DNA of 32,000 nucleotides, from contig NC_008789.1 of NCBI RefSeq assembly GCF_000015585.1, positions 1,650,001-1,682,000 of the forward strand, written 5' to 3'. The notes below the pieces were generated by a model, which was not told where the DNA came from, did no database searches, and was given only the letters and a program-made list of their open reading frames with translations. The position numbers were made by a program, and so were the translations under genes. Within the stretch, counting starts at the first letter, position 1; every line of letters begins with the position of its first letter. Positions 1 through 12,952 of this stretch are shown piece by piece. Source of the DNA: Halorhodospira halophila SL1 (lineage in GTDB: Bacteria > Pseudomonadota > Gammaproteobacteria > Nitrococcales > Halorhodospiraceae).

Positions 1-218
1 TCCGGTCGCACCGTCATGCCGCCGAGCAGTGGACCGAGCACCGAATCCGTATCGACGTAGACCTCGCTCGACGCCTCGTAGGTGTCGGGGAGGGCGTGGA
101 TGTACGCCCACCCGGGTATACAGACCAGCCAAGCGATGGGAAGGATCCACCACCGTCGACGCCAGGTCGCTCGCAGTTGGTGCAGCACTTCCTGGACGAC
201 CTGCTCCATCTGCCCCAT
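1..218 (-). CDS. Polysaccharide chain-length determinant (Wzz/EpsF-like), N-terminal fragment; the gene continues past the left edge
   Basis: Not in the ORF track because no stop falls inside the window. The minus-strand ATG at 218-216 is preceded by GGGGGAG. The frame stays open to position 1: MGQMEQVVQEVLHQLRATWRRRWWILPIAWLVCIPGWAYIHALPDTYEASSEVYVDTDSVLGPLLGGMTVRP. The WRRRW motif, TM helix and P-x-x-Y-x-A-x-x-x-V-Y-V-D pattern are typical of Wzz-family N-termini in EPS loci. Confidence 0.55.
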   Translation of the reverse strand, partial: MGQMEQVVQEVLHQLRATWRRRWWILPIAWLVCIPGWAYIHALPDTYEASSEVYVDTDSVLGPLLGGMTVRP

Positions 219-331
219 GGGTATCTGACTCCCCCAGCTTTCGTGCCGGAACCACTCTGGGGCAAGGCTAGCAGTGTCCTACGAGTCCGCAAGTTCGGTT
301 CGTAACCCTTTACAAAACCAGGACAACACCC

Positions 332-352
332 GGTGTCAGCGTTATTGACGCA
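332..352 (+). promoter_or_regulatory. Candidate enhancer (UAS) dyad for the PilZ-gene sigma-54 promoter
   Basis: GGTGTC-AGCGTTATT-GACGCA fits the YGT-N11-ACR element found upstream of five other sigma-54-type promoters in this window. It ends 76 nt before the -24 GG. Confidence 0.35.
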
Positions 353-426
353 AGCTTTGCACGGAAAACGCGAGGCTTTGCCGGGACACTTGCACACAGG
401 GGCTGAAGGGGATGACGACGACCGCT

Positions 427-442
427 TGGCACGGCACATGCA
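427..442 (+). promoter_or_regulatory. Sigma-54 (-24/-12) promoter upstream of the PilZ gene
   Basis: TGGCACGGCACATGCA matches TGGCACG-N4-TTGCW with correct GG-N10-GC spacing. It lies 108 nt upstream of the GTG at 550. Confidence 0.6.
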
Positions 443-500
443 GACCGGCCCCCGGCAATAGGCATTCGTAAGATCGCCGTTGCCCTGGACGCATAACCAC

Positions 501-545
501 GAACATCCATGAACCTCGGAGAACATCCACGACCCTCGGAGAACT
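501..545 (+). repeat. 20-bp tandem direct repeat (2.25 copies) in the 5' leader of the PilZ gene
   Basis: GAACATCCATGAACCTCGGA (501-520), GAACATCCACGACCCTCGGA (521-540) and GAACT (541-545). The second copy supplies the GGAG Shine-Dalgarno for the GTG at 550. Confidence 0.85.
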
Positions 546-549
546 TAAC

Positions 550-1119
550 GTGAACGCCCTCGACCTGGCAGAGGAGTTGGCCGATTTCTGGCTCCCGGTA
601 CTGGCGAAGCGCTCCTGGGAGGTGCGTGCCGACATGCTGGAGCAGATCCTTGGGCAGTTGGCGGACGACACCCCCGACCCCATGCTCTACCGCCGCCTGG
701 TCGCGTTTTTCCTGGCGACCGCGATCGATCGCCTTGCGGCCGATGAGCCGGTCGCCAGCCAGGCGCAGGCACGGATCTACATCCAGTCGGCCGATCCGAA
801 GCACCGCGCAATGGCCCTGGAACGCTTCCCCGAGGTCCACTCACGCCCTGCGTGGCGCGGCCACCCCCGTAACAACCCCCTGGACCGACGGGCCGCCCCG
901 CGACACCGCCTAACCGCCGAAGCAGGCATCGAAGCCGCCCGTACCAAGATCACGTGTCGGATCCACAATATCTCAAAGTCCGGAGCCCTAATTACCCTAC
1001 ATTTAATGCTTCAACCAAGCGATGAGGTTCACCTGACGCTGCGATCTCGCGACCAGCCGATAAACGGTCAGGTGGCGCGGGTTTCCGATCATGGCTGTGG
1101 CATCCTGTTCTGCGCATAA
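550..1119 (+). CDS. PilZ-domain (c-di-GMP-binding type) protein with an uncharacterised N-terminal domain
   Basis: GTG start with GGAG 8 nt upstream. The C-terminal region carries the two PilZ signatures: RRAAPR (RxxxR) and NISKSG (D/N-x-S-x-x-G). Confidence 0.7.
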   Translation: MNALDLAEELADFWLPVLAKRSWEVRADMLEQILGQLADDTPDPMLYRRLVAFFLATAIDRLAADEPVASQAQARIYIQSADPKHRAMALERFPEVHSRPAWRGHPRNNPLDRRAAPRHRLTAEAGIEAARTKITCRIHNISKSGALITLHLMLQPSDEVHLTLRSRDQPINGQVARVSDHGCGILFCA

Positions 1120-1309
1120 AGGAGACCTCGCGAGAACACCGGCCATCGCTCCGAGACTCGTCGCGAGCGCGAGTCCTTTACCCCACCGATAATATCGTTT
1201 TTACCTTAAATGACCCACCACGCTGCCGTGACGATGCTGTAGCATATTCATCGGTCCGATTCACGTTCAACCCCAAACGTCATGAGGATGAGGACAATTG
1301 GAGTTCGCG

Positions 1310-2032
1310 ATGTCATCCCCCTACTCCCGCTACAAGGTCATCCTGGCGACCGAAGATCAGGCGCGGTGCGCCCATTTCCAGTTACGATACATGGTTTATT
1401 GCGAAAAGAAGCAATATGAATCTTCAAGCCTTTTCCCGGATGGATATGAACGTGACGACCACGACAGTCACGCGCTCCACCTGCTTCTAAAATACACACC
1501 ACCGGGATCCCAGACGAATCGAAACGTGGGCACGATTCGTCTAATAAAAGGCGGAAACAAACCTCTTCCGATCGAGAACATCTCCGACCTGAACAGCAAT
1601 GAATTCACGAATGAATATAGTGGCGAGCTCTCGCGACTCGCTATCCATGAAGTGCCTTCAGGCCACGACACCCTCCCGCTGTTTATCCTCTGCCGTGCTG
1701 CACAGCACCACGCCAGGGGGTGTGGGATATCACGGCTATACTTCCTCGCTCGACCGGCGCTGGCCCGACATCTAACCCGTAACCATTTACCCTTCGAGCA
1801 GGCTGGTTCGCCTTGCTATCACCGCGGCCGCCGCATACCGTACGCGATGGACGTAAATGGCTTTGCTCGGGGGTTAGCGCGGTGGGAAAAGAAACTCATA
1901 AAACAGAAATTAGCCCCATCAAGTAAAACTGAAACCCTCCACGCCTACCAACATCCTAATAGACTTTCTGACATGGTTCCGAACGGCTGCCTGCAGACGA
2001 AGGGAATGCCGGAACCCAAAAAGGCGATATAA
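1310..2032 (+). CDS. PEP-CTERM/exosortase-system-associated acyltransferase (LuxI/FeeM-like N-acyl amino acid synthase fold), copy A
   Basis: FQLRYMVYCEKK...ERDDHD...GTIRLI...ELSRLAIHE matches the pattern of the exosortase-associated acyltransferase family (TIGR03694-like, from memory). ATG 1310 with GGAG 6 nt upstream is preferred over TTG 1298. GC is visibly lower than in neighbouring genes. Confidence 0.7.
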   Translation: MSSPYSRYKVILATEDQARCAHFQLRYMVYCEKKQYESSSLFPDGYERDDHDSHALHLLLKYTPPGSQTNRNVGTIRLIKGGNKPLPIENISDLNSNEFTNEYSGELSRLAIHEVPSGHDTLPLFILCRAAQHHARGCGISRLYFLARPALARHLTRNHLPFEQAGSPCYHRGRRIPYAMDVNGFARGLARWEKKLIKQKLAPSSKTETLHAYQHPNRLSDMVPNGCLQTKGMPEPKKAI

Positions 2033-2088
2033 GGACGACAGCATGGATTACATCGACTCCCGCCAGGCCAACAAGAGAACCAAAACCC

Positions 2089-2937
2089 ATGGATCGAAAC
2101 GAGCTAGTGAATCAATTCCAAGCCTATTTCGAGTATCAAGTAGCGCTGACACCGGAACAGCGCAGGGAGGCGTTCCAGCTCCGCTACGATGTCTACTGCA
2201 TGGAATACGGCTACGAAGACCCGTCGGACCACCCGGATGGGCAAGAGCAGGATGACTTCGACGAGAGCGCGTTAATTTGTACCGTACGGCACACTCAGAC
2301 CGGCCGCTTGGCCGGGTGCTTCCGGATTATCCTACCCGGAATGGAACCGTCTGAGCCTGAAAGGCTTCAAATGGAGGTGGACTGCACCGAAACCCTGTAC
2401 ACAAATGGTCGATTAGACTCGGGGCGGCACCCAAAGAATCTCCGACGCGATTCGGTTTGTGAAGTATCCCGCCTTGCTATCCACACCGACTTCCGCAAAC
2501 GCCCCGGCGAAAAGCAGACACGAATGGGTGCCGTTGACTGGCTTGACCTGCCCGAGGACCAGCGCCTTGCACACCTAAGGACCTTCCCGCTCCTTGGTTC
2601 CAGCCTGTTCTCCGCCGTCGCATACACCTGTGGACGGCTGGGACGAGATCACATCTTCGCGGTAATGGAACCACGTCTGGCTCGTCTACTTACCCGGGAA
2701 GGGATACGCTTCCAGCAGATTGGCGATGTCATGGAATACCATGGCGAGGAGCGCGCAGCATACTACAACTCACTGGAAAAATTCGTTGTGGAGACCGTTG
2801 CCTCCCCGCTGCTGAGACCACTCTATCGGATGGGGGAAAACCAGCTTGCACCAGGCTTGACGGTCTGGCTTGAGCGGCTTCGGAGCCATTCAAACGAGCA
2901 CTCGTGTGGCCGTAGGCCGGACAACAAGGTAAGCTGA
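2089..2937 (+). CDS. PEP-CTERM/exosortase-system-associated acyltransferase (LuxI/FeeM-like), copy B
   Basis: FQLRYDVYCMEYGYE...EQDDFDE...GCFRII...EVSRLAIHTDFRKR is paralogous to copy A. It has a longer insert between the conserved blocks. Confidence 0.75.
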   Translation: MDRNELVNQFQAYFEYQVALTPEQRREAFQLRYDVYCMEYGYEDPSDHPDGQEQDDFDESALICTVRHTQTGRLAGCFRIILPGMEPSEPERLQMEVDCTETLYTNGRLDSGRHPKNLRRDSVCEVSRLAIHTDFRKRPGEKQTRMGAVDWLDLPEDQRLAHLRTFPLLGSSLFSAVAYTCGRLGRDHIFAVMEPRLARLLTREGIRFQQIGDVMEYHGEERAAYYNSLEKFVVETVASPLLRPLYRMGENQLAPGLTVWLERLRSHSNEHSCGRRPDNKVS

Positions 2938-2938
2938 C

Positions 2939-3802
2939 ATGGCCCTCTTCGAATACCAGACCGCATTCAAGAGAACACTCGGGTGGATCACCGAGCAGGA
3001 GCAGGACACGCTTCGCAAAGCCACTGTGGCTATCGCAGGGCTAGGGGGTGTGGGAGGGAGCCACCTACTGACCCTAGCGCGGCTTGGCATCGGACGCTTT
3101 GCCGTCGCGGATTACGACGTCTTTGAACTGCACAACATGAACCGCCAGGCCGGCGCAACCATCAGCGCGCTGGGTCGGCCAAAAGTCGATGTGCTCTGCG
3201 AAAAAGCGCTCGACATCAACCCAGAGCTGGAGATCGAGCGATTCCCGAACGGGATTGACGCAGGCAATGTGGATCGGTTCCTTGATGGCGCTGACGTCTA
3301 CGTCGATGGCCTCGACTTCTTTGTCTACGATATACGGCAGCTGGTCTTTCGGCAGGCGGCCACTCGCCATATCCCTGCCTTCACCGCAGCGCCGCTGGGC
3401 ATGAGCGTCGCGTTCCTGGCGTTCCACCCCGGCGGGATCTCCTTCGAGCGCTATTTCCAGCTCGACCCGGAACTCGAAGAGGACGAAAAGGCTTTGCGGT
3501 TCATGCTGGGCCTTGCCCCTTCAGGACTCCACGCGGCTTCCTTGATCAACCCCTCCGCCATTGACCTCAAAGGGCAGTCGGGGCCATCCACCCCCATGGC
3601 CTGTGAACTCTGCGCCGGGGTCATGGGCACCGAGGTCCTCAAATGGCTCCTCCAGCGAGGTACCACCTACTGGGCCCCTTGGGCGGTGCAATTCGATGCC
3701 TACCGGATGAGGGTGCGGCGCACTTGGCGGCCCGGCGGCAACGCCCACCCCGTCCAACGCCTGGGCCTTTGGCTGGCAAGGCGCCGCCTGCTCGGGCAAT
3801 GA
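2939..3802 (+). CDS. ThiF/MoeB/E1-like adenylyltransferase, stand-alone
   Basis: Rossmann nucleotide loop AIAGLGGVGGSHLL, then DYDVFELHNMNRQ (the E1/ThiF D-x-D...N-L-N-R-Q block). Its ATG lies 1 nt after the TGA of the upstream acyltransferase (TGAcATG). Confidence 0.8.
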   Translation: MALFEYQTAFKRTLGWITEQEQDTLRKATVAIAGLGGVGGSHLLTLARLGIGRFAVADYDVFELHNMNRQAGATISALGRPKVDVLCEKALDINPELEIERFPNGIDAGNVDRFLDGADVYVDGLDFFVYDIRQLVFRQAATRHIPAFTAAPLGMSVAFLAFHPGGISFERYFQLDPELEEDEKALRFMLGLAPSGLHAASLINPSAIDLKGQSGPSTPMACELCAGVMGTEVLKWLLQRGTTYWAPWAVQFDAYRMRVRRTWRPGGNAHPVQRLGLWLARRRLLGQ

Positions 3803-3852
3803 TCCATTGTGCTGGTGCGCTGCGCCCCTCCTTCTTTTGCCCCTGATTCCCT

Positions 3853-6123
3853 CTAAGCGGATACCCGCCCCAGACTAAGCCTCGGAAAGCGCTTCGCAAG
3901 CACCGTGACTATCGCCGGCATGAGGAGCAAGTCGAAGAGCAGTGCCGCGACCAGACCGATGGCCGTAAGCAGACCAAAGGCCGCGGTTGGCTGGAAGTCT
4001 GAAGCAGCCAGAACCAGGAACTGCGCACACAGGACAATAGTCGTCGCCGTTACCGCCCGGCCCGTATGCTGCAACGCCCGGGCCAATGCAGCAACGACAC
4101 TGCTCCCTCTGCGCCGATAGAAGAGGAACCCGTGGTAGGTGTGGATGGTATCGTCCACCGCGATGCCGATTGCCACACTCGCCACCATGGCCGTCGCCAT
4201 ATCGAGCCAGACGCCGAAGGCCCCCATGACAATGAAGATGACCAGCAACGGAGATAGATTCGTCAGCATGGTCACAGAAGCCGCCGCCGCCGAGCGCCAG
4301 AGGACCAACATCAACACCGAGATCATCACGGCCACGGCAATGAGGCTACGAAGCTGCCCCTCTATGAGCAGTTCTTCCTGTTCGGCAAAGAGCCGCCCCA
4401 TCCCGGAGAGCTCCCAATCCAGAACCTCAACGCTCGAGTCAAGCTCCCCCCGAAACGCCTCAAGAGTCTGACCGATTTCGCGAGCGCCGGTGACGTTCAG
4501 GTTCATCAGGACGATGGCCCGCGTGAAATCCCGATTGACCAGGTCGTAGAGATCTCGCCCGTCGTATACGAACAGGTACTGGGCAATCAGATCTTGCCGA
4601 CCGGGCAGGGTCCGGAACTCCGGATCCTCGTCGTGGAACGCCCAGTGCATCTCCTCGAGCATATCCACCATCGATAGGGCGTAGTCCACCTCCTCCCGCT
4701 GTTCGGCCCAGCGCTGGAAGTCCCGAATCTCCTGCAAGGCAGCCGGATCCTGCAGCCCGTCGATAGCCTCGGCGTCGAAAACCGCCTCCACCACCATCAC
4801 ACCGGAGAGCGCGTCTTCGACCTTGCGGGTGTCTTGGGTGATGGGATGGCCCGCCGGGAAGAACTCGTAGAGATCACTCTCGACTTCGATCTTCGTGATC
4901 AGCGGCGCCGTCGCTGCAATCGCCAACGCGCTGACTGCGACGATCCAGCCCGCCCGACGCAGCGCGAATCCACGAGCCGCCTTAAGGATCGCGTCGAGGC
5001 CACCGATCCCGCGGCGCGGCAGCGACCAATTGCCGCGGTCGAAACGCGCGAGCAATGGTGGCAAAAGCACCATAACGACACAGTAGGCTAGGAGTACGCC
5101 GAACGCTGCGGTATACCCCAGGCTCTCGATGGGACGGATCGGACTCAGTGTGAGCGACAACAGCCCCGCAGCCGTTGTCAGAGCGGTAAACAATGCCGGC
5201 CTAGAGACCCTTTCCAAGCTATAGGCCAGCGCGCTTTCCTCGGTGTAGCCGCGTCGATGCGCGTGGCTCAGCGCGTTGAACAGGTGCATCAGCATTGCCA
5301 CCGTCAGCGCGGCCAGCAACGGTGGCAATATGGACGTCACCAGGGTATACGGATGACCCAGCAGCACCATCAGCGCCAGCGCAGGCGAGACGACCGCACC
5401 AATCGCCGCCCCTCCGGCAACCACCACCAGCCATCGCCGGAACATCCAGAACAGCAGTCCGAGGCCTACCGCTGTGGTGGCCGGAATAAAGACGGCGCTA
5501 TCCCGCAGCATGGAGCGCAGTTGCCAGACATCCAGCGCGACGTGGCCGGCAACCGCCTGTAGCCGCTCATCCAGGCCGGCCTCGGCCACCGCCTCGCGGA
5601 AGGCCCGCTCAAGCTCCAGCCGCTGCAGACTGTCTTCCAGTTCAGTCGGGCGCACGATGATCGCCAGGGCCGAACTATCCCGCGCAGCCAGCAACCCCGG
5701 TGCAAAACGATCTGCCCGGACGTGCTCCTGCCACTGACTCCCGCTCCGTTCTGGAATGGCGCCCGGGGGGACGATCTTCTCGACCGTGAAGCCATCGTCG
5801 ACGGCCCGAATCTGATCGAATGACGTTACACCCAGCACTCGCTCGACCTGCCGGTTCTCCTCCAGGTGTTGGATAAGCTCATGGAGCGCGCTAAGATTCT
5901 CGGGCTCGTAGATCTCCTCGCCGCCGAACAGGCCGACCAGGACCTGCTCCTCCGGGAACTCCTCGCGCACCGAAGCGTCGAAAAGGACGGCCGGTGCCTC
6001 CTTGGGAAAGTACGACTCCGGCGCATTGTCGAAGGTCAGGTTGAGCACGAGCGGGCCTGGCGCCAGCAGCAGCAACGCAAACAAGGTCGCCGCCAACCAC
6101 CGCGGCAAAGTCATACGCCTCAA
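3853..6123 (-). CDS. MMPL/RND-superfamily exporter (HpnN/MmpL-like lipid transporter type)
   Basis: 756 aa. It has an N-terminal TM helix and two large hydrophilic domains, each followed by a cluster of hydrophobic helices (about residues 210-400 and 590-745). TTG 6123 overlaps the upstream stop (TTGA); ATG 6114 is an alternative start. Confidence 0.75.
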   Translation of the reverse strand: MRRMTLPRWLAATLFALLLLAPGPLVLNLTFDNAPESYFPKEAPAVLFDASVREEFPEEQVLVGLFGGEEIYEPENLSALHELIQHLEENRQVERVLGVTSFDQIRAVDDGFTVEKIVPPGAIPERSGSQWQEHVRADRFAPGLLAARDSSALAIIVRPTELEDSLQRLELERAFREAVAEAGLDERLQAVAGHVALDVWQLRSMLRDSAVFIPATTAVGLGLLFWMFRRWLVVVAGGAAIGAVVSPALALMVLLGHPYTLVTSILPPLLAALTVAMLMHLFNALSHAHRRGYTEESALAYSLERVSRPALFTALTTAAGLLSLTLSPIRPIESLGYTAAFGVLLAYCVVMVLLPPLLARFDRGNWSLPRRGIGGLDAILKAARGFALRRAGWIVAVSALAIAATAPLITKIEVESDLYEFFPAGHPITQDTRKVEDALSGVMVVEAVFDAEAIDGLQDPAALQEIRDFQRWAEQREEVDYALSMVDMLEEMHWAFHDEDPEFRTLPGRQDLIAQYLFVYDGRDLYDLVNRDFTRAIVLMNLNVTGAREIGQTLEAFRGELDSSVEVLDWELSGMGRLFAEQEELLIEGQLRSLIAVAVMISVLMLVLWRSAAAASVTMLTNLSPLLVIFIVMGAFGVWLDMATAMVASVAIGIAVDDTIHTYHGFLFYRRRGSSVVAALARALQHTGRAVTATTIVLCAQFLVLAASDFQPTAAFGLLTAIGLVAALLFDLLLMPAIVTVLAKRFPRLSLGRVSA

Positions 6124-7652
6124 AACCGTCCCCTCCAGCCTGTCATGATGACGTCGTTATCCTGGTGGAACCCGCCGGCCGTCTCTTCCGCACCTTCGAA
6201 ATAGTGCGCCGACACGTAGAGTTCATGGGGTTCCCAGTCCACCCAGGCCACCTCCGGATTCAGGTAGATGTCCCGCTCATCGAGCCCGATCGCATAACGA
6301 AGCCTCGCCCGGAGACGCCGCTGCCAGGGCCGCCCCTCGATCTCGCCATTGAGGGTGACTTCATCGGCACGTTCCAGTAGGGACGGCGCATCAAGGTAGT
6401 GGCTGCCAACCAGCTGCACGTTCACTCGCAAATCCCCGTCCCCTGGAAACACCTCGGCCCCCACACCCCAATTGAAGGCCTCGAAATCCTCGCGCACGAA
6501 ATCTTCCTGCCGGGTCCCCGGCACGTCGCTGAGCCATACCGCTTCGGCGCGGTAGGTGACTCCGCCAGCGTCGATTGCACCGTCCACGCCGACCAGATAA
6601 CTGCGCGGATGGACCGCACGAAAGGTGTAATCGCCGGCCTGCACGGCCTCCTCCGGATCATCGAGGGCTCCGCGTGCCTCATCGCTCAACTCGTAGTACG
6701 GCGCGGAATGCCGGAAACGCTTGAACGTCGCAGCAGCGTCCCAGCCACGTCCGCCTCGGCTGACCCGAAGCCCGGCGCCGCCCTCGCCGTCGGTCTCTTC
6801 GACAAACCGCCCGTCTCGCACCAGATCCTGGAATTGGGGCTCCGACGGCAGGCCCAGAAAACGCCCACGCTGGCGATCAACCGGATGCCAGACGCTATCG
6901 CGATCCGGCATTTCCGCCTCCCGGAACCACGGCACCACCACGGCGTCGAACTCCCAACCGTTGGTGAAGAGCTGCCCACGAACCGCGGGAGCGGCGCGAC
7001 GCCGCTCACTGAGGTCGTCCAGGACAAAGCGTGACAGGTCCTCGACGCTCAGTCGGTCGGTCGGCGAGACCTCATCGATCCGGCCCCAGACCACCTGTTG
7101 CGCACCAGCGGTCAGACGCCATCCGCGACCCCGGTAGCGGAGGTACACCTCCCCGTAGTCGACATCGATCTCCTCGACACGTGGGCCCCCGCGCTGGTAA
7201 TGACCGTCCACGCGGCTCTCCACGCGAGCGCTCCAGGGGCCCCGGGGTTGCCAGTCCGCACGTCCTAGCAGGTGCCCGTGGTAGACCAGGTCGGCGTAAG
7301 AGGCACTGCGCGGCAGCCAACCCGCGTCCAGACGCACACTTTCGACTCCGAACGCCCAGTCCTCCGGGAGCCATGCCTCCGGTTGTGGCTTGTCCTCGTC
7401 GACGGCCTCCGGCGACGGATCGCCGATGCGTATACCGCCGTCGCCCTCGGCCCCGTTTTCCGCGAGCCGCCGCGACGGCTCCAAAGCCTCAAACTCCCCC
7501 CGGACCGGCTCCACCGAGTCACCGGCCGCATCGCCACGATCACCTATTGAGGCCAAGGCCACCCCATTAACCCCGATGGACGCCGACCCGAGCCCTAGCA
7601 CCACCAGCAGCGTCCGACACCGCGGAATGGGCCGGTCAAGGGCGGTAGGCAC
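6120..7652 (-). CDS. Putative outer-membrane beta-barrel protein (DUF1302-like)
   Basis: The protein ends in ...TGWRGRF, a C-terminal Phe typical of the OMP beta-signal. It is rich in alternating aromatic and charged strands and contains an AGAQQVVWGRIDE block. GTG 7652, preceded by GGGGGG, gives a signal-like N-terminus, MPTALDRPIPRCRTLLVVLGLGSASIGVNGVALA. The longer ORF-track start at 7784 would overlap the upstream gene by about 150 nt. Confidence 0.5.
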   Translation of the reverse strand: MPTALDRPIPRCRTLLVVLGLGSASIGVNGVALASIGDRGDAAGDSVEPVRGEFEALEPSRRLAENGAEGDGGIRIGDPSPEAVDEDKPQPEAWLPEDWAFGVESVRLDAGWLPRSASYADLVYHGHLLGRADWQPRGPWSARVESRVDGHYQRGGPRVEEIDVDYGEVYLRYRGRGWRLTAGAQQVVWGRIDEVSPTDRLSVEDLSRFVLDDLSERRRAAPAVRGQLFTNGWEFDAVVVPWFREAEMPDRDSVWHPVDRQRGRFLGLPSEPQFQDLVRDGRFVEETDGEGGAGLRVSRGGRGWDAAATFKRFRHSAPYYELSDEARGALDDPEEAVQAGDYTFRAVHPRSYLVGVDGAIDAGGVTYRAEAVWLSDVPGTRQEDFVREDFEAFNWGVGAEVFPGDGDLRVNVQLVGSHYLDAPSLLERADEVTLNGEIEGRPWQRRLRARLRYAIGLDERDIYLNPEVAWVDWEPHELYVSAHYFEGAEETAGGFHQDNDVIMTGWRGRF

Positions 7653-8475
7653 GTTCGCCCCCCGGATCCGACAACGCCGCGCGGGAGAAGAGATCTTGCG
7701 GCAACCCCTGGTCATAGACCACCTGCTCGACAAGGAAGCGAGTTTGGTGACCACTATCCAGGTCTTCCATGGTGCTCTCGACAACCGTCCAGTAGCCCTG
7801 GTGCTGCTCCAAGGCCTGCACCGTTAATCGCTTCGCCGGCTCGTCATCGCCCTGGTAGTAGTCGATTCGCAGGGGAACCAGCGACTCTTCATGAACCCAC
7901 TGATCGCGCAGGGTATACACGGAGTTGTCGCCCTCGACAGGGCGACTCTCCAGGCGGAAAACCGGAAGGCCCTCCAACTCATCCCGACCCACGTATTCGT
8001 GTTCGTCCTGCCGGACTTTACGATCGCGCAAATCCTCAAAGAAGAAGTCGCTGTCCACGAAGCGACCGCCCATCCGCTCCGAGGCCACCCTTCGAACCCG
8101 GTCCAGTGCCGGCAGGTAAAGCCATTGATCTGTGCTGCCGTCTGGATAGTCCCGTGTGAGCATCGCCGTATCGGCAACATCCGATGGGGCCGTGAACCGG
8201 ACCAGGTTCCAGACCTCCTCATCGTCAATCTGTAGACGGTACTCGTAGAACGAACGCTCCCGCTCGGAGCGACCGGGGCCATCGAGCACCATACGCCCCT
8301 GTTGCACGGCATCATCCCCTTCGGGGCGGTCATAGACCCACTGGGCCAGCTCCTCGCCATCGGCTGGCTCCTCATTCGCCGCCACCAGCGACACCAACCC
8401 CGCGGTCAGGAGTATCACGCCCCCCAAGACCCCCGAAAAAGGACTTGCCCGTAACATCCTGCCCACGGCCGACAT
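7636..8475 (-). CDS. LolA-like 'outer membrane lipoprotein-sorting' family protein
   Basis: Signal peptide, then VRFTAPSDVADTAMLTRDY...DQWLYLPALDRVRRVAS...FVDSDFFFEDL. This is characteristic of the LolA_like (PF17131-type) family. GGGGAGAG lies upstream of ATG 8475. Confidence 0.7.
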   Translation of the reverse strand: MSAVGRMLRASPFSGVLGGVILLTAGLVSLVAANEEPADGEELAQWVYDRPEGDDAVQQGRMVLDGPGRSERERSFYEYRLQIDDEEVWNLVRFTAPSDVADTAMLTRDYPDGSTDQWLYLPALDRVRRVASERMGGRFVDSDFFFEDLRDRKVRQDEHEYVGRDELEGLPVFRLESRPVEGDNSVYTLRDQWVHEESLVPLRIDYYQGDDEPAKRLTVQALEQHQGYWTVVESTMEDLDSGHQTRFLVEQVVYDQGLPQDLFSRAALSDPGGERAYRP

Positions 8476-8564
8476 AGACGACTCTCCCCATTCAGAGACA
8501 CACGAACCACATCCGTCCTACTCTCCTGTACTGATCGGAATTGCGCAAGCTCCCCTACAAAAAC

Positions 8565-8585
8565 AGCGTCTTTTTTCCTTACAAC
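8565..8585 (+). promoter_or_regulatory. Candidate UAS dyad for PEP-CTERM gene 1
   Basis: AGCGTC-TTTTTTCCT-TACAAC ends 97 nt before the -24 GG at 8682. Confidence 0.35.
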
Positions 8586-8680
8586 GAGGCTCACAACGGC
8601 CTCACCGCCGCGACCAGTCGATCTCCTAACCCGCTATTTCCTTTTGCCTTTTCCACCCCCACTGGGTCTACCCCATAGGG

Positions 8681-8696
8681 TGGCCCCAATCGTGCT
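8681..8696 (+). promoter_or_regulatory. Sigma-54-type promoter upstream of PEP-CTERM gene 1
   Basis: TGGCCCCAATCGTGCT has correct GG-N10-GC spacing, but its flanks are weaker than in the other five promoters. It lies 114 nt upstream of ATG 8810. Confidence 0.45.
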
Positions 8697-8809
8697 ACTA
8701 AAAAGGTCAAGGGCAGATCGCTCCAGATCGGCGCAGCCTCCCGAGATGGCTCGATTAATGGCCCCCAACGAACGAAGCACAGGCACATCACGGCTGGAGA
8801 ATGACAACG

Positions 8810-9736
8810 ATGAAAACCCAACCCATGCTAGGCCTTTTCGCGTCCGCGCTGGTACTTGGAATGCTATCAGCGCCCGCCTACGCCGCCCAGTTCACCATTG
8901 ACCCGAGGGACTTTGCCGGTTTTGATGACGGCCCCACCGCCCCTCTTAATTCCCTTGGCTGGGAGCTTCGAACGGCTACGACCCAGTTCGGAACCAGCTC
9001 CGGAGAAAACTGGCTCCCGGACGGGGGGTCACGCTTTTTGGATATCGGATTCGGGCGAATCGACGCTTACAATCCATACGATATCGGGGATGACCAAATC
9101 GCTGGCATCCGCCAGCGGGATATGACCCTCAGATGGGACAACATCGCCGGCACCCTCGGTGCCGATGGGCAGCTAAGCTACGAGAGTGGGACCATTGATT
9201 TCTACTTTGGCGGGGACGGCATTGGATCGGGGGATCTTCGGAGCAGCGATCCTTTCGATACCAACAGTGCTGAGTGGCAGGCCGCCGGCTCCGGCGAGCA
9301 CGTCCTCTCGATGGAACTGAGTAGGGGGGACGCACTCGCCAGACTCATTACTGACGACGATGGCAATCTAGAGGCGATTGACGCCACCCAGTTTGACCTC
9401 TTCTTTGATATTACTTTTGCACGAGAGGGCTTCTGGGCTCTGACCGATAGCCGCCCCTTTGAAGAACTGATCGGGTTGCAACTGATTTCGGCGTTCGGTG
9501 AGGCCGGCGGTGCCACACAGAGAAACACGGTTCTTAACGACGATGAAAACGCTTTCACCGATGCCGATATCGCGCTCTACACCCACTACGCTGGCGTTCG
9601 GCGCGGTTCGCTGGAGTTCCAGGTGCCCGAGCCGAGCACGCTGATGCTCATGGGGGGATCGCTGATCCTGCTCGCCCTCGCCACCGGTGGCTTTCGTCGG
9701 CGTCAAAGCGAGTCCGGAGGACTAGCGGCCTCGTAG
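8810..9736 (+). CDS. PEP-CTERM sorting-domain protein, acidic paralog 1
   Basis: Signal peptide MKTQPMLGLFASALVLGMLSAPAYA. The C-terminus VPEPSTLMLMGGSLILLALATGGFRRRQ is a PEP motif, TM helix and Arg cluster. ATG 8810 (GGAGA 9 nt upstream) is preferred over 8801. Confidence 0.85.
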   Translation: MKTQPMLGLFASALVLGMLSAPAYAAQFTIDPRDFAGFDDGPTAPLNSLGWELRTATTQFGTSSGENWLPDGGSRFLDIGFGRIDAYNPYDIGDDQIAGIRQRDMTLRWDNIAGTLGADGQLSYESGTIDFYFGGDGIGSGDLRSSDPFDTNSAEWQAAGSGEHVLSMELSRGDALARLITDDDGNLEAIDATQFDLFFDITFAREGFWALTDSRPFEELIGLQLISAFGEAGGATQRNTVLNDDENAFTDADIALYTHYAGVRRGSLEFQVPEPSTLMLMGGSLILLALATGGFRRRQSESGGLAAS

Positions 9737-9787
9737 TCCACCGCAAGCACCTCGGGTGCCTTACGCCTTATACGACACGAAAAGGCA

Positions 9788-9820
9788 CAAGGAGGGGGAC
9801 TTTCCCCCTCCTTGTTTTTT
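9788..9820. terminator. Rho-independent terminator, probably bidirectional (between convergent pep1 and prsT)
   Basis: CAAGGAGGGGGA-CTT-TCCCCCTCCTTG is a 12-bp perfect stem followed by TTTTTT. The complementary strand has a CCTTTT tail. Confidence 0.8.
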
Positions 9821-9844
9821 GGTGCACCAGAAGCTCTCAAGCAC

Positions 9845-12577
9845 TCAATCGCCGAGGTTCGTCAACATTTCCTCTGCGTCCTGGCGCCCCGAAAAGTCCG
9901 CATGCGCCTCCAGCAACTGCTCGAGGATATCACGGGCTTGGCTCACCTGACCGTCAGCACGAAGCGCCCTGGCAAGATTGAGTTGCACGTCCGGATCGCC
10001 GCCGGCAAGGGCCACGGCCTGATCGAGATACTCAACCGCATCGGACGTCCGGTCGTTGCGAAGGAGCACCACGCCGAGGGTGTCCAGCACGGCAGCCTCC
10101 CCCGGGGCCAGGTCATAGGCGCGCCGGGCGTATTCCAGCGCTTGGTCCGGCGCGTCCTCGCGCAGAAGCCACGCCAGGTTATTCAAGGCCAGCGGGTCCT
10201 GCTCACGCTGCTGTAACAGGTGCGTATAAACCTGGATGGCATCCTCGTCGCGACCTGCTTCCAGTAGTGCAGAGCCCAGCACATGGCGCATCTGCGCATC
10301 TGCCGGATTGGCGCTCAGCCAGTCGTTTAGACGATCGATACCGGCATCCAGGTCATCTGCGGCGCGCTTGGCGGTGTAGCCCTCGAGCACCCAGGACCGC
10401 TCCATACGACCTGAGAGGGCGTGTCCATAATGCTCGGCCGCACGCGCAAACCGGCCATCGCGATACGCCAACCAACCCTGATGGGCGTGCACCTCCGGTG
10501 CATCCGGGTTGGCTTCGGCCACCGGTGCGAAAACCTCTTCAGCCTCCTCCCTTTGCCCCTGGCGAGCCAACTGCCGTGACCGGGCATGGGCCGCCGAGTA
10601 GTGGCTGGGATCAGCCGAAAGCGCCGACTCCAAGGCCTCCACCGACCCTTGCTCATCCCCCGCGGCCGCACGCGCCAGCGCGAGCAGGTAATGCAGGTCG
10701 GCGGCATCCGGGTCCAACTCCGTGGCGCGCTCGAGCAGCCTCCGCGCCTCTCGGTCCTCACCGGCCATGCCGTAGATCCGTGCGGCCTCGCCTAGAAACT
10801 GTGCATCCTCCGGACGTTCTTCCAGGGTTTGCTCAAGCACGGACAGCCCCTCGGCTGCGGAATCCATCTGGATCAGCCACTCAGCCAGCCGCATCGCCAC
10901 CCGCGGCTCATCGGGTACTGCTTGATGCACCCCACGAAGCACTTCGATCCCCGCCTCGGCCTCACCGCGGGCGCGCTCGAGGCTGCTAAGATTCATCGCC
11001 AGATCGGCACTGTCCGGAACCGCCTCCAGCCCTTCTCGCAACACACGCCGCGCCCCCGGGCGATCCCCTTGACCCAGGAGGACCGCGGCACGGAGGTTAT
11101 ATCCTACGGGATCCTCCGGGGCCTTATCCTGGGTCCGCTCAGCAGCGACCGCCGCCGCCTCGAAACGCCCAGCCTCGATATAAGCCTGCACCAATGTCAA
11201 ATCCGCTGCACGCAGGGCCCCATCAGCGGACGCCACGGCTTCTAACTCCTCAAGGCCCTTCTCTTCGTCTCCGGCCAGCAGCAGCGCCGTTCCGAGCACC
11301 TCGCGCGTCTCCAGGGCATCGGGTTGCGCGTCCAAAACACGCCTCAGGGTCTGGATACCGGACTCCACATCGCCGGTATCCAGATAGAGCGCACCTAGCC
11401 GATCGCCCAGCTCAGAAACCCATTCCGGCCGTTCCGCGAGCGCCTCACTGAGGACCTCCCGCGCCTCCTCGGGCTGATCTTGCGCCATGTACAACCTTGC
11501 CCGCAAGGTGTAGCTGGTCACAGACCCCGGACCACTCGCGTGGTATCGATTCAGGTGGTGCTCGGCCTGGGCAAGGTTCCCACGCTCAAGCTCCAGCCCT
11601 GCGAGATAGGGGCGCGCCGGGCGATATTCCCGTTGGCGTGCCAGCGCTTCCTCGAACTGCGTTCGGGCTTCATCGGGGGAATCACCCTCGAGTTCTACGA
11701 GCCCCATCAAGAAGTAGCCGCCGGCAAAACCCGGCGCCCCTTCGACCAGTTGCTCGGCGTCAGCTCGGGCCCCTTCAAAGTCTTCTTCGCGAAGCCGAAC
11801 CATCGCTCGCGAGAAACGATCGCTCACATAGTCGGGTCGTAGATCGACGGCTCGATCGAAGGCCTCCCGTGCGCTCTGCCTTTCACCAACGACCTCAGCC
11901 AGGCTGCCGCGAAGCGTCCATGCCGGATAGTAGTCTTCATCGAGCGCCACAGCGGCCTCCAGGTGGCTCGCAGCTTGCGCCCGATCACCGGCAACGAGGG
12001 CACCAAAGGCCTTTGCCAACTCCAGCTCCGGAAGGTCCGCTGCTTCGCTCACCGCGGCCGTCAACAACTCGCTACCCGCTTCGTCATCCCCCCGGTGGTA
12101 GGCCGCCACTGCGCGGTAGGCAAATACCCGGGCCTTGGCCTCCCCCTCAAGCGCTTCGTATTCGAAGTCGACCAGCTCGCCGTGTTGCCTTGTCTCGTGA
12201 TAAAGGCGGGCGAGGGTCGGGGCGTAGCGCTTGGGCTCCGCCCCCTGCTCCAGCGCGCGGGTGAGGTGATTAATCGCTGCGTCGGTATCGCCATCGCCGG
12301 CGTACGCCAACCCGAGCTGACCGCGGGTCTCGGGCGTCTCTACTTTTTGAAGGGCATTCCTATAGTCAAGAACCGCCGCACGGTACTCCCCAGCCTCTAG
12401 TTGCTCCGCCGCGCGCTCCAGATACTCCTCTTCGGACAACCCTTGCCACGCTTCACAACCAACCATCCAAAGCGCGAACACCCCCAGGGCGGCGACGTGC
12501 GGCCACGCCGCCGCCCCCAGCAACGGATTGCGGGGCCGATCGCCCTGTACCCTTCTCAGCCCAGATCCTTTCCTCAC
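9845..12577 (-). CDS. prsT: PEP-CTERM system TPR-repeat lipoprotein
   Basis: 910 aa of TPR repeats throughout, with an N-terminal lipobox LWMVGC. GTG 12577 has AAGGAGGTGA 6 nt upstream. Size and context match PrsT (TIGR02917-like). Confidence 0.85.
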   Translation of the reverse strand: MRKGSGLRRVQGDRPRNPLLGAAAWPHVAALGVFALWMVGCEAWQGLSEEEYLERAAEQLEAGEYRAAVLDYRNALQKVETPETRGQLGLAYAGDGDTDAAINHLTRALEQGAEPKRYAPTLARLYHETRQHGELVDFEYEALEGEAKARVFAYRAVAAYHRGDDEAGSELLTAAVSEAADLPELELAKAFGALVAGDRAQAASHLEAAVALDEDYYPAWTLRGSLAEVVGERQSAREAFDRAVDLRPDYVSDRFSRAMVRLREEDFEGARADAEQLVEGAPGFAGGYFLMGLVELEGDSPDEARTQFEEALARQREYRPARPYLAGLELERGNLAQAEHHLNRYHASGPGSVTSYTLRARLYMAQDQPEEAREVLSEALAERPEWVSELGDRLGALYLDTGDVESGIQTLRRVLDAQPDALETREVLGTALLLAGDEEKGLEELEAVASADGALRAADLTLVQAYIEAGRFEAAAVAAERTQDKAPEDPVGYNLRAAVLLGQGDRPGARRVLREGLEAVPDSADLAMNLSSLERARGEAEAGIEVLRGVHQAVPDEPRVAMRLAEWLIQMDSAAEGLSVLEQTLEERPEDAQFLGEAARIYGMAGEDREARRLLERATELDPDAADLHYLLALARAAAGDEQGSVEALESALSADPSHYSAAHARSRQLARQGQREEAEEVFAPVAEANPDAPEVHAHQGWLAYRDGRFARAAEHYGHALSGRMERSWVLEGYTAKRAADDLDAGIDRLNDWLSANPADAQMRHVLGSALLEAGRDEDAIQVYTHLLQQREQDPLALNNLAWLLREDAPDQALEYARRAYDLAPGEAAVLDTLGVVLLRNDRTSDAVEYLDQAVALAGGDPDVQLNLARALRADGQVSQARDILEQLLEAHADFSGRQDAEEMLTNLGD

Positions 12578-12742
12578 AAGTCACCTCCTTTTATGCGCCG
12601 CACCGACCGGGTGTGCCACAAGCTAACGACCGAGCCGGGGTCTACGCGGCCGGCCACCTCCTATCCCGTAACTCTAGGCGTTTTTTCCTGCAGTGATACC
12701 CGCCCGGCTGATCGGCTCCGGGGCACTCAACGACTGCGATCG

Positions 12743-12763
12743 GACGTTGAGTTTCTTTACACC
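12743..12763 (+). promoter_or_regulatory. Candidate UAS dyad for PEP-CTERM gene 2
   Basis: GACGTT-GAGTTTCTT-TACACC ends 96 nt before the -24 GG at 12859. Confidence 0.4.
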
Positions 12764-12873: not shown

Positions 12874-12952
12874 TCAGCGCGCTGGCGAACGTCACCCATG
12901 CGCTCAGTGTCAATAGCCACTTCAAGGAAACCAAGGAAAGGAGACCCAACCG

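What the first reader, a model, noticed from the sequence alone, without database searches (positions are those of the whole stretch)
3853..8475. Translationally coupled LolA-like / beta-barrel / MMPL triad converging on the acyltransferase operon: a possible envelope-spanning lipid exporter
Three minus-strand genes are linked by overlapping stop and start codons. The proposed GTG at 7652 overlaps the LolA-like stop by 17 nt, and TTGA at 6120-6123 joins the barrel gene to the MMPL gene.

The three products would cover each envelope compartment:
- an inner-membrane MMPL/RND-type transporter;
- a periplasmic LolA-like hydrophobic-cargo carrier;
- a protein ending in ...GWRGRF, the C-terminal Phe of an OMP beta-signal.

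The operon ends 50 nt from the 3' end of the acyltransferase/ThiF operon, in convergent orientation. The arrangement invites the hypothesis that it exports the acylated product, or another lipid needed for the exosortase and EPS envelope. As far as I know the substrate of such triads has not been established.
Basis: inference. Interest (0 to 1): 0.6.

Follow-up and report, generated by a model that had tools for sequence, protein, structure and literature searches.

The report
Lipid-export gene trio beside exosortase acyltransferases
Three tightly linked genes in Halorhodospira halophila encode an inner-membrane lipid pump, a periplasmic lipid carrier and an outer-membrane barrel, and related bacteria keep this trio next to enzymes that make fatty-acyl amino acids, which suggests it carries that lipid to the cell surface.

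Summary
Window 3853-8475 (minus strand) holds three genes in the order LolA_like carrier, beta-barrel, MMPL/RND transporter. Stop and start codons can overlap at both junctions, and such overlaps are conserved in relatives.

The middle protein has no Pfam hit of its own. Its AlphaFold2 model is a confident barrel of about 18 strands. Profile comparison shows it is a divergent DUF1302 relative.

The kind is already known: DUF1302 / DUF1329-LolA-like / HAE3-RND clusters such as AmeABCD. This one is a three-gene variant without the BNR partner.

The linkage appears to be new:
- The trio is intact in 36 of 40 related species-level loci.
- In 24-25 of the 40 it lies within 10 kb of the exosortase-associated N-acyl amino acid synthases and/or the ThiF-like gene.
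- Another Halorhodospira and Thioalkalivibrio have these genes co-directional, apparently as one operon.
- Other PEP-CTERM loci carry the same barrel and carrier with a LolCDE-like ABC transporter in place of the RND pump.
- One locus has an MMPL-LolA_like fusion.

Best reading: a dedicated inner-to-outer-membrane route for the acyl-amino-acid-derived lipid. The cargo is inferred, not shown.

The parts
7636..8475 (-). First gene of the trio: a periplasmic LolA_like (PF17131) hydrophobic-cargo carrier of 279 aa. It has a signal peptide and no cysteine, so it is soluble and not a lipoprotein.
   Evidence: Pfam LolA_like E 5.5e-57 (192.8 bits, cut-off 30) plus a weaker DUF1329 hit. Closest solved structures are 9TP6 (LolA3 of P. 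gingivalis, E 1.8e-31), 3BK5 and 4Z48. N-terminal hydrophobic segment 19-33 and no Cys.
6120..7652 (-). Second gene: an outer-membrane beta-barrel and divergent DUF1302 relative, 510 aa from GTG 7652. It has a signal peptide, a disordered acidic linker of about 60 aa, a barrel over residues 94-510, and the C-terminal beta-signal ...GWRGRF.
   Evidence: No Pfam or NCBIfam hit of its own. AlphaFold2 gives pLDDT above 90 for most of 94-510 (block means 85-98) and about 18 strands. Foldseek matches porins. Homologues P0024, P0028, P0032, P0037 and P0038 hit PF06980 above its cut-off. hhalign against DUF1302-positive barrels gives probability 100%, E 5e-43 over 388 columns.
3853..6123 (-). Third gene: an inner-membrane MMPL/RND (HAE3-like) transporter, 756 aa from TTG 6123 or 753 aa from ATG 6114. 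It has 12 transmembrane helices and two periplasmic domains.
   Evidence: Pfam MMPL E 7e-26; TIGR00921 HAE3 164 bits, below its cut-off of 352. AlphaFold2 pLDDT 88, pTM 0.85. Foldseek TM-scores of 0.72-0.78 to MmpL3/4/5 and about 0.7 to HpnN. The TM10 motif G653-I-x-x-D657-D658-T-x-H661 is conserved in 42 orthologues.
3803..3852 (.). 50-nt convergent intergenic spacer between the ThiF-like gene and the MMPL gene, holding a terminator-like hairpin at 3814-3826.
   Evidence: Sequence and terminator scan.
1298..2032 (+). [quoted passage not shown] Proposed maker of the cargo.
   Evidence: TIGR03694 at 118.9 bits, cut-off 111.95. Pfam Acetyltransf_5.
2089..2937 (+). Exosortase-associated acyltransferase 2, of the N-acyl amino acid synthase type.
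   Evidence: TIGR03694 at 179.3 bits; Pfam Acetyltransf_5 and FeeM.
2939..3802 (+). ThiF/E1-like adenylyltransferase of family PRK08223, the constant partner of the acyltransferases.
   Evidence: NF006077 at 473.8 bits, cut-off 266; Pfam ThiF E 2.6e-41. 50-65% identical copies lie next to the triad in 23 of 40 loci.
550..1119 (+). PilZ-domain protein that heads the acyltransferase/ThiF operon. A sigma-54-like -24/-12 element lies at 427-442.
   Evidence: Pfam PilZ E 2.5e-9. Conserved upstream of the acyltransferases in Thioalkalivibrio. TGGCACGGCACATGCA at 427-442.
8476..8800 (.). 325-nt divergent intergenic region between the LolA-like gene and a PEP-CTERM protein gene. The trio's promoter is presumed to lie here but was not identified.
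   Evidence: No sigma-70-like or minus-strand sigma-54-like match. No Rfam family.

Best explanation

Proposed steps:
1. [quoted passage not shown]
2. It hands the lipid to the soluble LolA_like carrier, which shields the acyl chain while it crosses the periplasm.
3. The carrier delivers it to the DUF1302-type barrel of about 18 strands. The barrel's long and highly conserved loops L3-L5 would form the receiving or gating site, and the barrel inserts the lipid into the outer membrane or releases it there.

The most likely cargo is the product of the neighbouring enzymes. [quoted passage not shown] They belong to the XrtA/PEP-CTERM exopolysaccharide and protein-sorting locus.

What is shown: gene identities, predicted folds, coupling of the genes, and conserved linkage. 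What is inferred: direction of transport, hand-over order and cargo.
For: Identity of the parts:
- Family hits, structure models, fold matches and solved relatives.
- The barrel is homologous to DUF1302.

Operon and coupling:
- The gene order LolA_like, barrel, MMPL occurs on one strand in 36 of 40 species-level loci. A stop/start overlap is possible at the barrel-MMPL junction in 23 of them.

Physical partnership:
- A natural MMPL-LolA_like fusion of 1070 aa lies directly after PrsT in locus L109.
- The same kind of fusion is reported in Thalassolituus (TOL_3187), followed by a porin-like protein (PMC6304351).
- AlphaFold-Multimer gave ipTM 0.84 for a DUF1302-DUF1329 pair (PMC13499233).

Link to the acyltransferases and ThiF:
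- They lie within 10 kb of the triad in 24-25 of 40 loci, in at least four arrangements: convergent here, divergent, co-directional and flanking.
- In Thioalkalivibrio and in Halorhodospira assembly GCA_022227925.1 they appear to form one operon with the triad, with 13-26 nt gaps in the latter.
- Starting instead from the ThiF-like gene in metagenomes, an export module lies nearby in 8 of 13 loci that also have the acyltransferase, against 3 of 24 that do not (Fisher p = 0.006).

Non-orthologous displacement:
- In other PEP-CTERM/acyltransferase loci the same PF17131 carrier and a DUF1302 barrel come with two LolC/E-like permeases. The one LolD-like ATPase ORF that was scanned is in L092. This fits a cargo that has to be pulled out of a membrane.
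- In L107 a ThiF-nitroreductase fusion overlaps (ATGA) an MMPL gene.

The pump looks functional: the acidic pair D657/D658 and H661 in TM10 are at least 95% conserved.

Precedents for RND plus LolA-like lipid routes: ApeL/ApeM/ApeN in aryl polyene clusters (PMC8253772), the hopanoid transporter HpnN, and AmeABCD (PMC6394551).

The acyltransferase matters for the exopolysaccharide phenotype: a Methylomonas LW13 mutant in the PEP-CTERM N-acyl amino acid synthase loses the polysaccharide band (PMC11072679).
Against: - There is no experimental datum on cargo, direction or protein contacts for this subfamily.
- About a quarter of the closest relatives, in Sedimenticolaceae, Cellvibrionaceae/Pseudomaricurvus and Hydrogenophilaceae MAGs, have the triad with no PEP-CTERM gene in the flanks available. 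Two of these loci were scanned and have housekeeping neighbours. These MMPL genes often carry an N-terminal extension that scans as a PAS domain in L019. The module can therefore work with another substrate.
- Most ThiF-like loci in metagenomes have no export module within 10 kb.
- The acyltransferase operon has a sigma-54-like promoter. No such site was found upstream of the triad, so co-regulation is not shown.
- The products of these particular acyltransferases are unknown. That this family makes long-chain N-acyl amino acids rests on Craig, Cherry & Brady 2011, known to me only by its title and from memory; the paper was not held.
Confidence: 0.55

Rival explanations
1. This is a general hydrophobe-handling module, for solvent, terpene or alkane tolerance or for outer-membrane lipid housekeeping, like AmeABCD or the Shewanella/Pseudomonas DUF1302/DUF1329/RND clusters. 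It sits in the exosortase locus without using the acyltransferase product.
For: The family is known from monoterpene tolerance (AmeABCD), pleiotropic fitness phenotypes and induction on alkanes. The triad stands alone among housekeeping genes in L019 and L033, and without PEP-CTERM markers in L017, L025, L034 and L037-L038.
Against: Linkage to the acyltransferases and ThiF survives inversions and rearrangements across several families, and becomes a single operon in some. Independent lineages recruit a distant MMPL (25-27% identity), an MMPL-LolA_like fusion, or an ABC engine to the same neighbourhood. The classic cluster's BNR/COG4447 partner is absent.
Confidence: 0.2
2. The system is a private Lol-like pathway for lipid-anchored proteins. 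Exosortase XrtA transfers PEP-CTERM proteins onto the acyl-amino-acid-derived lipid, and the MMPL (or the LolCDE-like ABC transporter), the LolA_like carrier and the DUF1302 barrel move these conjugates to the cell surface.
For: The ABC flavour has the composition of the Lol machinery: LolC/E-like permeases, PF17131 LolA_like and an outer-membrane acceptor in the same loci, with a LolD-like ATPase scanned in one locus, L092. PEP-CTERM protein genes flank the triad here (8801-9736) and in Thioalkalivibrio. From my own knowledge, not tested here: the related archaeosortase and rhombosortase systems attach their substrates to lipids.
Against: No evidence exists that XrtA substrates are lipidated. 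MmpL/HpnN-type RND proteins are known to move lipids and lipophilic small molecules, not proteins. LolA3, the closest solved relative, did not pair with LolB and its role is unknown.
Confidence: 0.15
3. The barrel is an AlgE-like exopolysaccharide porin, and the trio helps secrete the EPS polymer.
For: A UniRef name for the identical protein reads 'Alginate export domain-containing'. DUF1302 models resemble AlgE at TM-score about 0.55 (PMC13499233). The locus makes EPS.
Against: There was no Pfam Alginate_exp hit even at E up to 1. The locus already has its own Wza-type PEP-CTERM EPS export protein at 20549-21337. The obligatory partners are a lipid-type RND pump and a LolA-like carrier, neither of which has a role in polymer secretion.
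Confidence: 0.05
4. The system imports hydrophobic nutrients, in the order outer-membrane barrel, LolA-like carrier, MMPL.
For: Related clusters are induced during growth on alkanes, terpenes and aromatics and have been drawn as uptake routes.
Against: Characterised RND/MmpL transporters work outward, driven by the proton gradient (for the fold; the direction is from general knowledge). H. halophila is an anoxygenic phototroph (my own knowledge, not tested here), and the neighbourhood is biosynthetic, not catabolic.
Confidence: 0.03

Closest known systems
DUF1302 / DUF1329 / BNR (COG4447) / HAE3-RND four-gene clusters, e.g. AmeABCD of Castellaniella defragrans and Sama_1588-1591 of Shewanella amazonensis
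   Same: It has an outer-membrane DUF1302-type barrel, a periplasmic LolA-superfamily protein and an HAE3-like RND pump encoded together. Those clusters are proposed to move hydrophobic or envelope compounds outward (PMC6394551; bioRxiv 10.1101/072470).
   Different: - There is no BNR/Ycf48-like fourth gene.
- The carrier is the short PF17131 type (about 280 aa), not the roughly 450-aa DUF1329 type.
- The barrel is too divergent for PF06980 to detect, and in relatives it is fused to LysM, SPOR or AMIN peptidoglycan-binding domains.
- The gene order is carrier, barrel, pump.
- The genomic context is the XrtA/PEP-CTERM locus, not a catabolic island.
ApeL (LolA-like) / ApeM (RND) / ApeN (LolB-like) of aryl polyene gene clusters
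   Same: An MMPL-type RND pump and a LolA-like carrier are encoded inside a lipid biosynthesis cluster. They are proposed to place the cluster's own lipid in the outer membrane (PMC8253772).
   Different: The outer-membrane partner here is a large beta-barrel and not a DUF3261 LolB-like protein. The biosynthetic genes are N-acyl amino acid synthases plus ThiF rather than a type II PKS/FAS. No sequence comparison with ApeLMN was run.
HpnN hopanoid transporter and mycobacterial MmpL3/4/5
   Same: The fold is the same, with TM-scores of 0.7-0.78: 12 transmembrane helices, two periplasmic domains and a conserved acidic relay in TM10.
   Different: Sequence identity is only 13-17%. HpnN is reported to work without co-encoded periplasmic or outer-membrane partners, and MmpL4/5 use MmpS and AcpM partners. 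Here the partners are a LolA_like carrier and a barrel.
LolCDE-LolA-LolB lipoprotein pathway
   Same: The logic matches: an inner-membrane extractor, a soluble carrier with a hydrophobic cavity, and an outer-membrane acceptor. Sister loci even use LolC/E-like permeases (with a LolD-like ATPase in L092) together with the same carrier and barrel families.
   Different: The engine here is an RND pump driven by the proton gradient. The carrier belongs to the LolA3/PF17131 branch, which did not bind LolB. The acceptor is a barrel and not a lipoprotein. No NCBIfam LolA or LolB model matches.
Thalassolituus oleivorans TOL_3187 (MMPL-LolA-like fusion) and TOL_3188 (porin-like protein)
   Same: The three functions are the same, with pump and carrier fused, followed by a barrel-like protein that has no recognised domain (PMC6304351). 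L109 is an equivalent fusion in a PEP-CTERM locus.
   Different: That system is induced on C28 alkane in a hydrocarbon degrader. Homology of TOL_3188 to this barrel was not tested.

Membership tests
RND superfamily, MMPL family (PF03176) | Match to the Pfam MMPL model above its gathering score | tested here: met
   91.3 bits against a cut-off of 20.5, two stretches.
RND superfamily, MMPL family (PF03176) | 12 transmembrane helices with large periplasmic domains after TM1 and TM7, and an MmpL/HpnN-like fold | tested here: met
   The AlphaFold2 model (pLDDT 88, pTM 0.85) has 12 long helices and domains at about 28-193 and 412-574. Foldseek TM-scores are 0.72-0.78 to MmpL3/4/5 and about 0.7 to HpnN.
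RND superfamily, MMPL family (PF03176) | Conserved charged proton-relay residues in TM4/TM10 | tested here: met
   D657, D658 and H661 in TM10 and H280 in TM4 are at least 95% conserved in 42 orthologues. The TM4 motif lacks an acidic residue.
HAE3 family (TIGR00921) | Score above NCBIfam's curated cut-off | tested here: not met
   164.2 bits against a cut-off of 351.9, although the match is full length (residues 11-740) with E 3.6e-48. It is HAE3-like but is not called a member by the curated model.
LolA_like (PF17131) | Match above the gathering score, a secreted soluble protein, and relatives with a solved LolA-type fold | tested here: met
   192.8 bits against 30. Signal-peptide-like N-terminus and no Cys. 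9TP6, 3BK5 and 4Z48 match at E 1.8e-31 to 2.7e-23.
Canonical LolA / LolB of the Lol pathway | Match to the LolA or LolB equivalog models, and pairing with LolCDE and LolB | tested here: not met
   No NCBIfam family matched at E up to 0.01. The partner encoded here is an RND pump. The closest solved relative, LolA3, showed only weak binding to LolB.
DUF1302 (PF06980) | Match to the Pfam model above the gathering score | tested here: not met
   No hit for the window protein even at E up to 1.
DUF1302 (PF06980) | Homology to bona fide members over the whole barrel | tested here: met
   Five homologues at E 4e-72 to 8e-7 hit PF06980 at 27-59 bits (cut-off 23.2). hhalign of the family profile against DUF1302-positive barrels gives probability 100%, E 5.1e-43 over 388 columns.
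DUF1302 (PF06980) | 18-stranded outer-membrane barrel (as modelled in PMC13499233) with a C-terminal aromatic beta-signal | tested here: met
   DSSP of the model gives 18 long strands if 159-174 counts as one bulged strand, with short turns alternating with long loops. The protein ends in ...GWRGRF, a terminus conserved in most relatives. The strand count is read from a string, not from coordinates.
Four-gene DUF1302/DUF1329/BNR/RND cluster (AmeABCD type) | A BNR/Ycf48-like (COG4447) periplasmic protein encoded with the other three | tested here: not met
   There is no fourth gene between 3853 and 8475 or at its borders. There is none between the triad genes in the 40 related loci. In L121 the five genes are contiguous.
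Tripartite HAE1-type efflux pump (AcrAB-TolC type) | A membrane-fusion (HlyD-family) adaptor and a TolC-like outer-membrane factor | tested here: not met
   Neither is encoded here. The partners are a LolA_like carrier and a DUF1302-type barrel.
XrtA/PEP-CTERM system locus | Presence of the system's curated marker genes around the triad | tested here: met
   PrsT, PrsR, PrsK, the TIGR03013 glycosyltransferase, the pepcterm_export protein and two TIGR03694 acyltransferases all score above their cut-offs. Three PEP-CTERM proteins carry VPEPSTL...RRR tails. The exosortase gene itself was not found inside the window.

The most novel reading that the evidence does not exclude
The N-acyl amino acid synthases and the ThiF-like adenylating enzyme make a dedicated amino-lipid that serves as the long-sought acceptor onto which exosortase XrtA transfers PEP-CTERM proteins. 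The LolA_like carrier and DUF1302 barrel, driven by an MMPL pump here or by a LolCDE-like ABC transporter elsewhere, would then be a private Lol-type pathway that carries this anchor, or the lipid-anchored proteins, to the cell surface.
Probability: 0.15. Interest if true: 0.9.

Novelty: new variant of a known kind. Interest (0 to 1): 0.55.

Why it matters
Two questions have been open since 2006-2011. The first is what the exosortase/PEP-CTERM system attaches its proteins to, or otherwise needs in the envelope. [quoted passage not shown] Separately, DUF1302 and the LolA_like/DUF1329 proteins are widespread envelope proteins with no established cargo.

This locus family joins the two problems. 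It offers a defined candidate cargo (the neighbouring enzymes' product), a defined route (pump, carrier, barrel), and natural variants: an RND or an ABC engine, a pump-carrier fusion, and barrels fused to peptidoglycan-binding domains. Together these make the questions testable by deletion plus lipidomics.

If the route is confirmed, it would be a new dedicated lipid trafficking pathway across the Gram-negative envelope. It would also give a function to DUF1302.

Tried and rejected
- The first locus scan, with the 32-sequence alignment, failed for lack of a conserved stretch. It was repeated with 10 closer sequences.
- Pfam and NCBIfam give nothing for the barrel itself, even at E up to 1. A profile search of PDB sequences gave only noise.
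- Foldseek of the barrel returned only generic 16-stranded porins (TM-score 0.4-0.55), so it confirms 'outer-membrane barrel' and no more.
- Model coordinates are not exposed. A plug, a lateral gate and an exact strand count could not be examined.
- A heteromeric model of carrier with barrel or pump could not be run with the tools available.
- No sigma-70-like promoter was found in 3600-9000. No sigma-54-like site was found on the minus strand upstream of the LolA-like gene. No Rfam family matched in 1-13000. The trio's regulation is therefore unresolved.
- Craig, Cherry & Brady 2011 (PMC3187218) is not held. Its content is cited from the title and from other papers' reference lists only.
- Literature searches combining PEP-CTERM or exosortase with RND, LolA, MMPL or DUF1302 found no paper that makes the link. 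Haft 2006 does not mention RND, LolA, acyltransferase or ThiF.
- The AlgE-like EPS porin reading and the import reading were considered and set aside (see rivals).
- The plus-strand ORFs inside 3853-8475, such as 6399-7034 and 7031-7570, were treated as shadow ORFs typical of high-GC DNA and not as genes.

Full report
**Source and observation**

The window comes from Halorhodospira halophila SL1: the middle protein is 100% identical to a database entry from that genome. The minus strand between 3853 and 8475 carries three consecutive ORFs. GTG 7652 lies 17 nt inside the upstream gene, whose stop is 7638-7636. TTGA at 6123-6120 joins the second and third genes. The third gene ends 50 nt from the convergent ThiF-like gene, across a terminator-like hairpin at 3814-3826.

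The database entries use later starts: GTG 7604, ATG 6114 and ATG 8457. These remove the overlaps but leave gaps of only 31 and 5 nt.
- The 84%-identical homologue begins 'MP', aligned with GTG 7652.
- Only that start supplies an Arg-rich n-region before the hydrophobic core of a signal peptide.
- Overlapping stop/start codons at the barrel-pump junction recur in 23 related loci: TGATG in 16, and NTGA in 7, including two Halorhodospira MAGs.

**What the three proteins are**

- Gene 1 (7636-8475) hits Pfam LolA_like PF17131 at E 5.5e-57, with a weaker DUF1329 match. It has a signal-peptide-like N-terminus and no cysteine, so it is a soluble periplasmic protein. Its nearest solved relatives are LolA3 of Porphyromonas gingivalis (9TP6, E 1.8e-31), 3BK5 and 4Z48. 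LolA3 has a hydrophobic groove but bound LolB only weakly, and its authors conclude that it has a separate function (PMC13103446).
- Gene 3 (3853-6123) hits Pfam MMPL. It also matches the HAE3 model TIGR00921 over its full length, but below the curated cut-off. An AlphaFold2 model built from 25 homologues (pLDDT 88, pTM 0.85) shows 12 long helices and two periplasmic domains. It superposes on MmpL3/4/5 (TM-score 0.72-0.78) and on HpnN (about 0.7). In 42 orthologues the TM10 motif G-I-x-x-D657-D658-T-x-H661 is at least 95% conserved, as expected for an active proton-driven pump.
- Gene 2 (6120-7652) has no Pfam or NCBIfam hit, even at permissive thresholds. Its AlphaFold2 model, from a 32-sequence alignment, is disordered for residues 1-93 (signal peptide plus acidic linker). 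For 94-510 it is confident, with pLDDT above 90 for most residues (block means 85-98). About 18 long strands are separated alternately by short turns and by long loops. Foldseek returns outer-membrane porins.

The barrel's strongest conservation lies in three long loops, L3 to L5, with motifs WGRxDExPPTDRLS and FRxAELPDxDSxWHPVDRxRGR. By analogy with porins these loops probably fold into the lumen. That is an inference, because the coordinates could not be inspected.

Five of the barrel's homologues hit PF06980 (DUF1302) above threshold. A profile-profile comparison with DUF1302-positive barrels gives probability 100%, E 5e-43 over 388 columns. The barrel is therefore a divergent DUF1302 relative. 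Many homologues carry N-terminal LysM, SPOR or AMIN domains, which are peptidoglycan-binding modules. The window's copy has only the acidic linker. An exhaustive search of cluster representatives found 633 related clusters, 127 of them at E below 1e-30.

**Conservation of the trio**

A scan of one genome per species returned 40 loci from Thioalkalivibrio, Halorhodospira, Thiohalophilus, Marichromatium, Sedimenticolaceae, Pseudomaricurvus/Cellvibrionaceae and Hydrogenophilaceae. The three genes are adjacent on one strand in 36 of them. The other four are cut by contig ends or, in L031, fragmented. Only Marichromatium has a different order, with the pump first.

**Link to the exosortase locus**

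The window itself is an XrtA/PEP-CTERM locus. It contains:
- two TIGR03694 acyltransferases and a PRK08223 ThiF-like gene, headed by a PilZ-domain gene;
- three PEP-CTERM proteins;
- PrsT, PrsR and PrsK;
- the TIGR03013 glycosyltransferase and the PEP-CTERM EPS export protein.

Among the 40 loci, the acyltransferases and/or the ThiF-like gene lie within 10 kb of the trio in 24-25, and some PEP-CTERM marker lies there in 28. The arrangement varies: convergent here, divergent in several, flanking in two, and co-directional directly upstream in 11. In another Halorhodospira species the order is acyltransferase, ThiF, LolA_like, barrel, MMPL, with gaps of 13-26 nt, which looks like one operon. Linkage that survives this much rearrangement argues for a shared function.

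**The reverse test**

I started instead from the ThiF-like protein in metagenomes and screened all ORFs with locally built HMMs. An export module lies within 10 kb in 8 of 13 loci of at least 10 kb that also have the acyltransferase. It does so in only 3 of 24 that lack it (Fisher p = 0.006).

Only one of those modules is a close orthologue of the window's trio. The others are:
- distant MMPL genes at 25-27% identity (L107, L120);
- an MMPL gene that overlaps (ATGA) a ThiF-nitroreductase fusion gene (L107);
- a single 1070-aa MMPL-LolA_like fusion right after PrsT (L109);
- an 'ABC flavour' in which a PF17131 carrier and a SPOR-fused DUF1302 barrel accompany two LolC/E-like permeases, with a LolD-like ATPase scanned in L092 (L066, L092, L117, L118).

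The carrier and barrel stay the same while the engine is swapped. This pattern, together with the pump-carrier fusion, is the strongest computational evidence that the proteins act together on a membrane-embedded, acylated cargo connected with the acyltransferase/ThiF enzymes.

**Limits**

- About a quarter of the closest relatives have the trio with no PEP-CTERM marker in the flanks available. In the two such loci whose neighbours were scanned, L019 and L033, these are housekeeping genes. The pump there has an N-terminal extension of about 130 aa, which scans as a PAS domain in L019.
- Most ThiF-like loci have no export module in view. The association is frequent and recurrent, not obligatory.
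- A sigma-54-like -24/-12 element precedes the PilZ-acyltransferase-ThiF operon (427-442) and the PEP-CTERM genes, but none was found upstream of the trio.
- Nothing here shows the cargo, the direction of transport or the protein contacts.

**Comparison with known systems**

The kind is already known. DUF1302 / DUF1329 / BNR / HAE3-RND clusters are cofit in Shewanella, Kangiella and Pseudomonas and were proposed to export a cell-wall component. AmeABCD confers monoterpene tolerance. A 2026 study modelled DUF1302 as an 18-stranded, AlgE-like barrel that docks with DUF1329.

The window's system differs in five ways:
- it lacks the BNR partner;
- it uses the short PF17131 carrier;
- its barrel lies outside the reach of PF06980;
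- its relatives have barrels fused to peptidoglycan-binding domains;
- it sits in the XrtA locus.

Functionally it resembles ApeL/ApeM/ApeN of aryl polyene clusters, where an RND pump and Lol-like proteins are proposed to place the cluster's own lipid in the outer membrane. Searches of the paper library found nothing that connects PEP-CTERM or exosortase with LolA-like, MMPL or DUF1302 proteins. The key 2011 paper on the synthases could not be read.

**Verdict**

The system is a new variant of a known but functionally unsolved kind. Its value is that it names a candidate cargo and makes the question testable.

The most novel reading not excluded is that the lipid is the anchor used by exosortase, and that the trio is a private Lol-like route for it or for proteins attached to it.

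Noticed in passing
window 550-1119 (+), with 427-442 (+): A PilZ-domain ORF (Pfam E 2.5e-9) heads the acyltransferase-acyltransferase-ThiF operon. It is preceded by a sigma-54-like -24/-12 element, TGGCACGGCACATGCA. Homologues sit in the same place in Thioalkalivibrio loci. This hints at c-di-GMP and PrsR/sigma-54 control of the acyl-amino-acid genes.
   Followed up: partly
window 8801-9736, 12953-13984, 14432-15481 (all +); 12858-12873 and 14395-14410: Three paralogous PEP-CTERM proteins carry near-identical VPEPSTL...RRR tails. Two of them are preceded by the identical sigma-54-like element TGGCACGCCCGATGCA, and the third by a weaker one at 8681-8696.
   Followed up: partly
L019 11220-13877, L033 11282-13957; also P0397, P0408 and other 880-995-aa homologues: In trio copies that stand outside PEP-CTERM loci, and also in some inside them (L014, L016), the MMPL pump has an N-terminal cytoplasmic extension of about 130 aa. 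It scans as a PAS domain in L019 (TIGR00229, E 1.5e-7), which is an unusual sensor fusion for an RND transporter. The 954-995-aa homologues (P0396, P0404, P0406, P0408, P0416, P0420) carry PF01527.
   Followed up: partly
L107 9752-11980 and 11977-14307; L100 925-2913: The ThiF-like enzyme occurs fused to a nitroreductase/Acg-type FMN domain (742 aa in L107; PRK14851 / Rv1355c-like). In L107 this gene overlaps (ATGA) an MMPL gene. L100 has a similarly long 662-aa ORF that was not scanned.
   Followed up: partly
L066, L090, L063, L092, L114, L117, L118: An 'ABC flavour' of the module occurs next to ThiF, with the acyltransferases also present in L066, L117 and L118. The full set is seen in L066, L092, L117 and L118: two LolC/E-like permeases (MacB_PCD + FtsX domains), a PF17131 LolA_like protein and a DUF1302 barrel. 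A SPOR domain on the barrel was confirmed in L117, and a LolD-like ATPase was scanned in L092. L063, L090 and L114 show only the permeases within the DNA available.
   Followed up: yes
L031 9761-14019: In one gammaproteobacterial MAG the barrel is split into two ORFs and the MMPL into three fragments. This is either a decaying copy of the trio or assembly errors.
   Followed up: no
window 23911-25167 (-) and 25025-25945 (-): An unannotated 418-aa ORF with no NCBIfam hit is paired with HprK-related kinase A (TIGR04352). The pair recurs near PrsK/PrsR or the ThiF-like gene in L014, L016, L020, L050, L083 and L120.
   Followed up: no
window 6114/6123, 7604/7652, 8457/8475: The database start codons of all three trio genes are downstream of the starts that comparative data favour. 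For the barrel, the annotated start removes the charged n-region of the signal peptide.
   Followed up: yes
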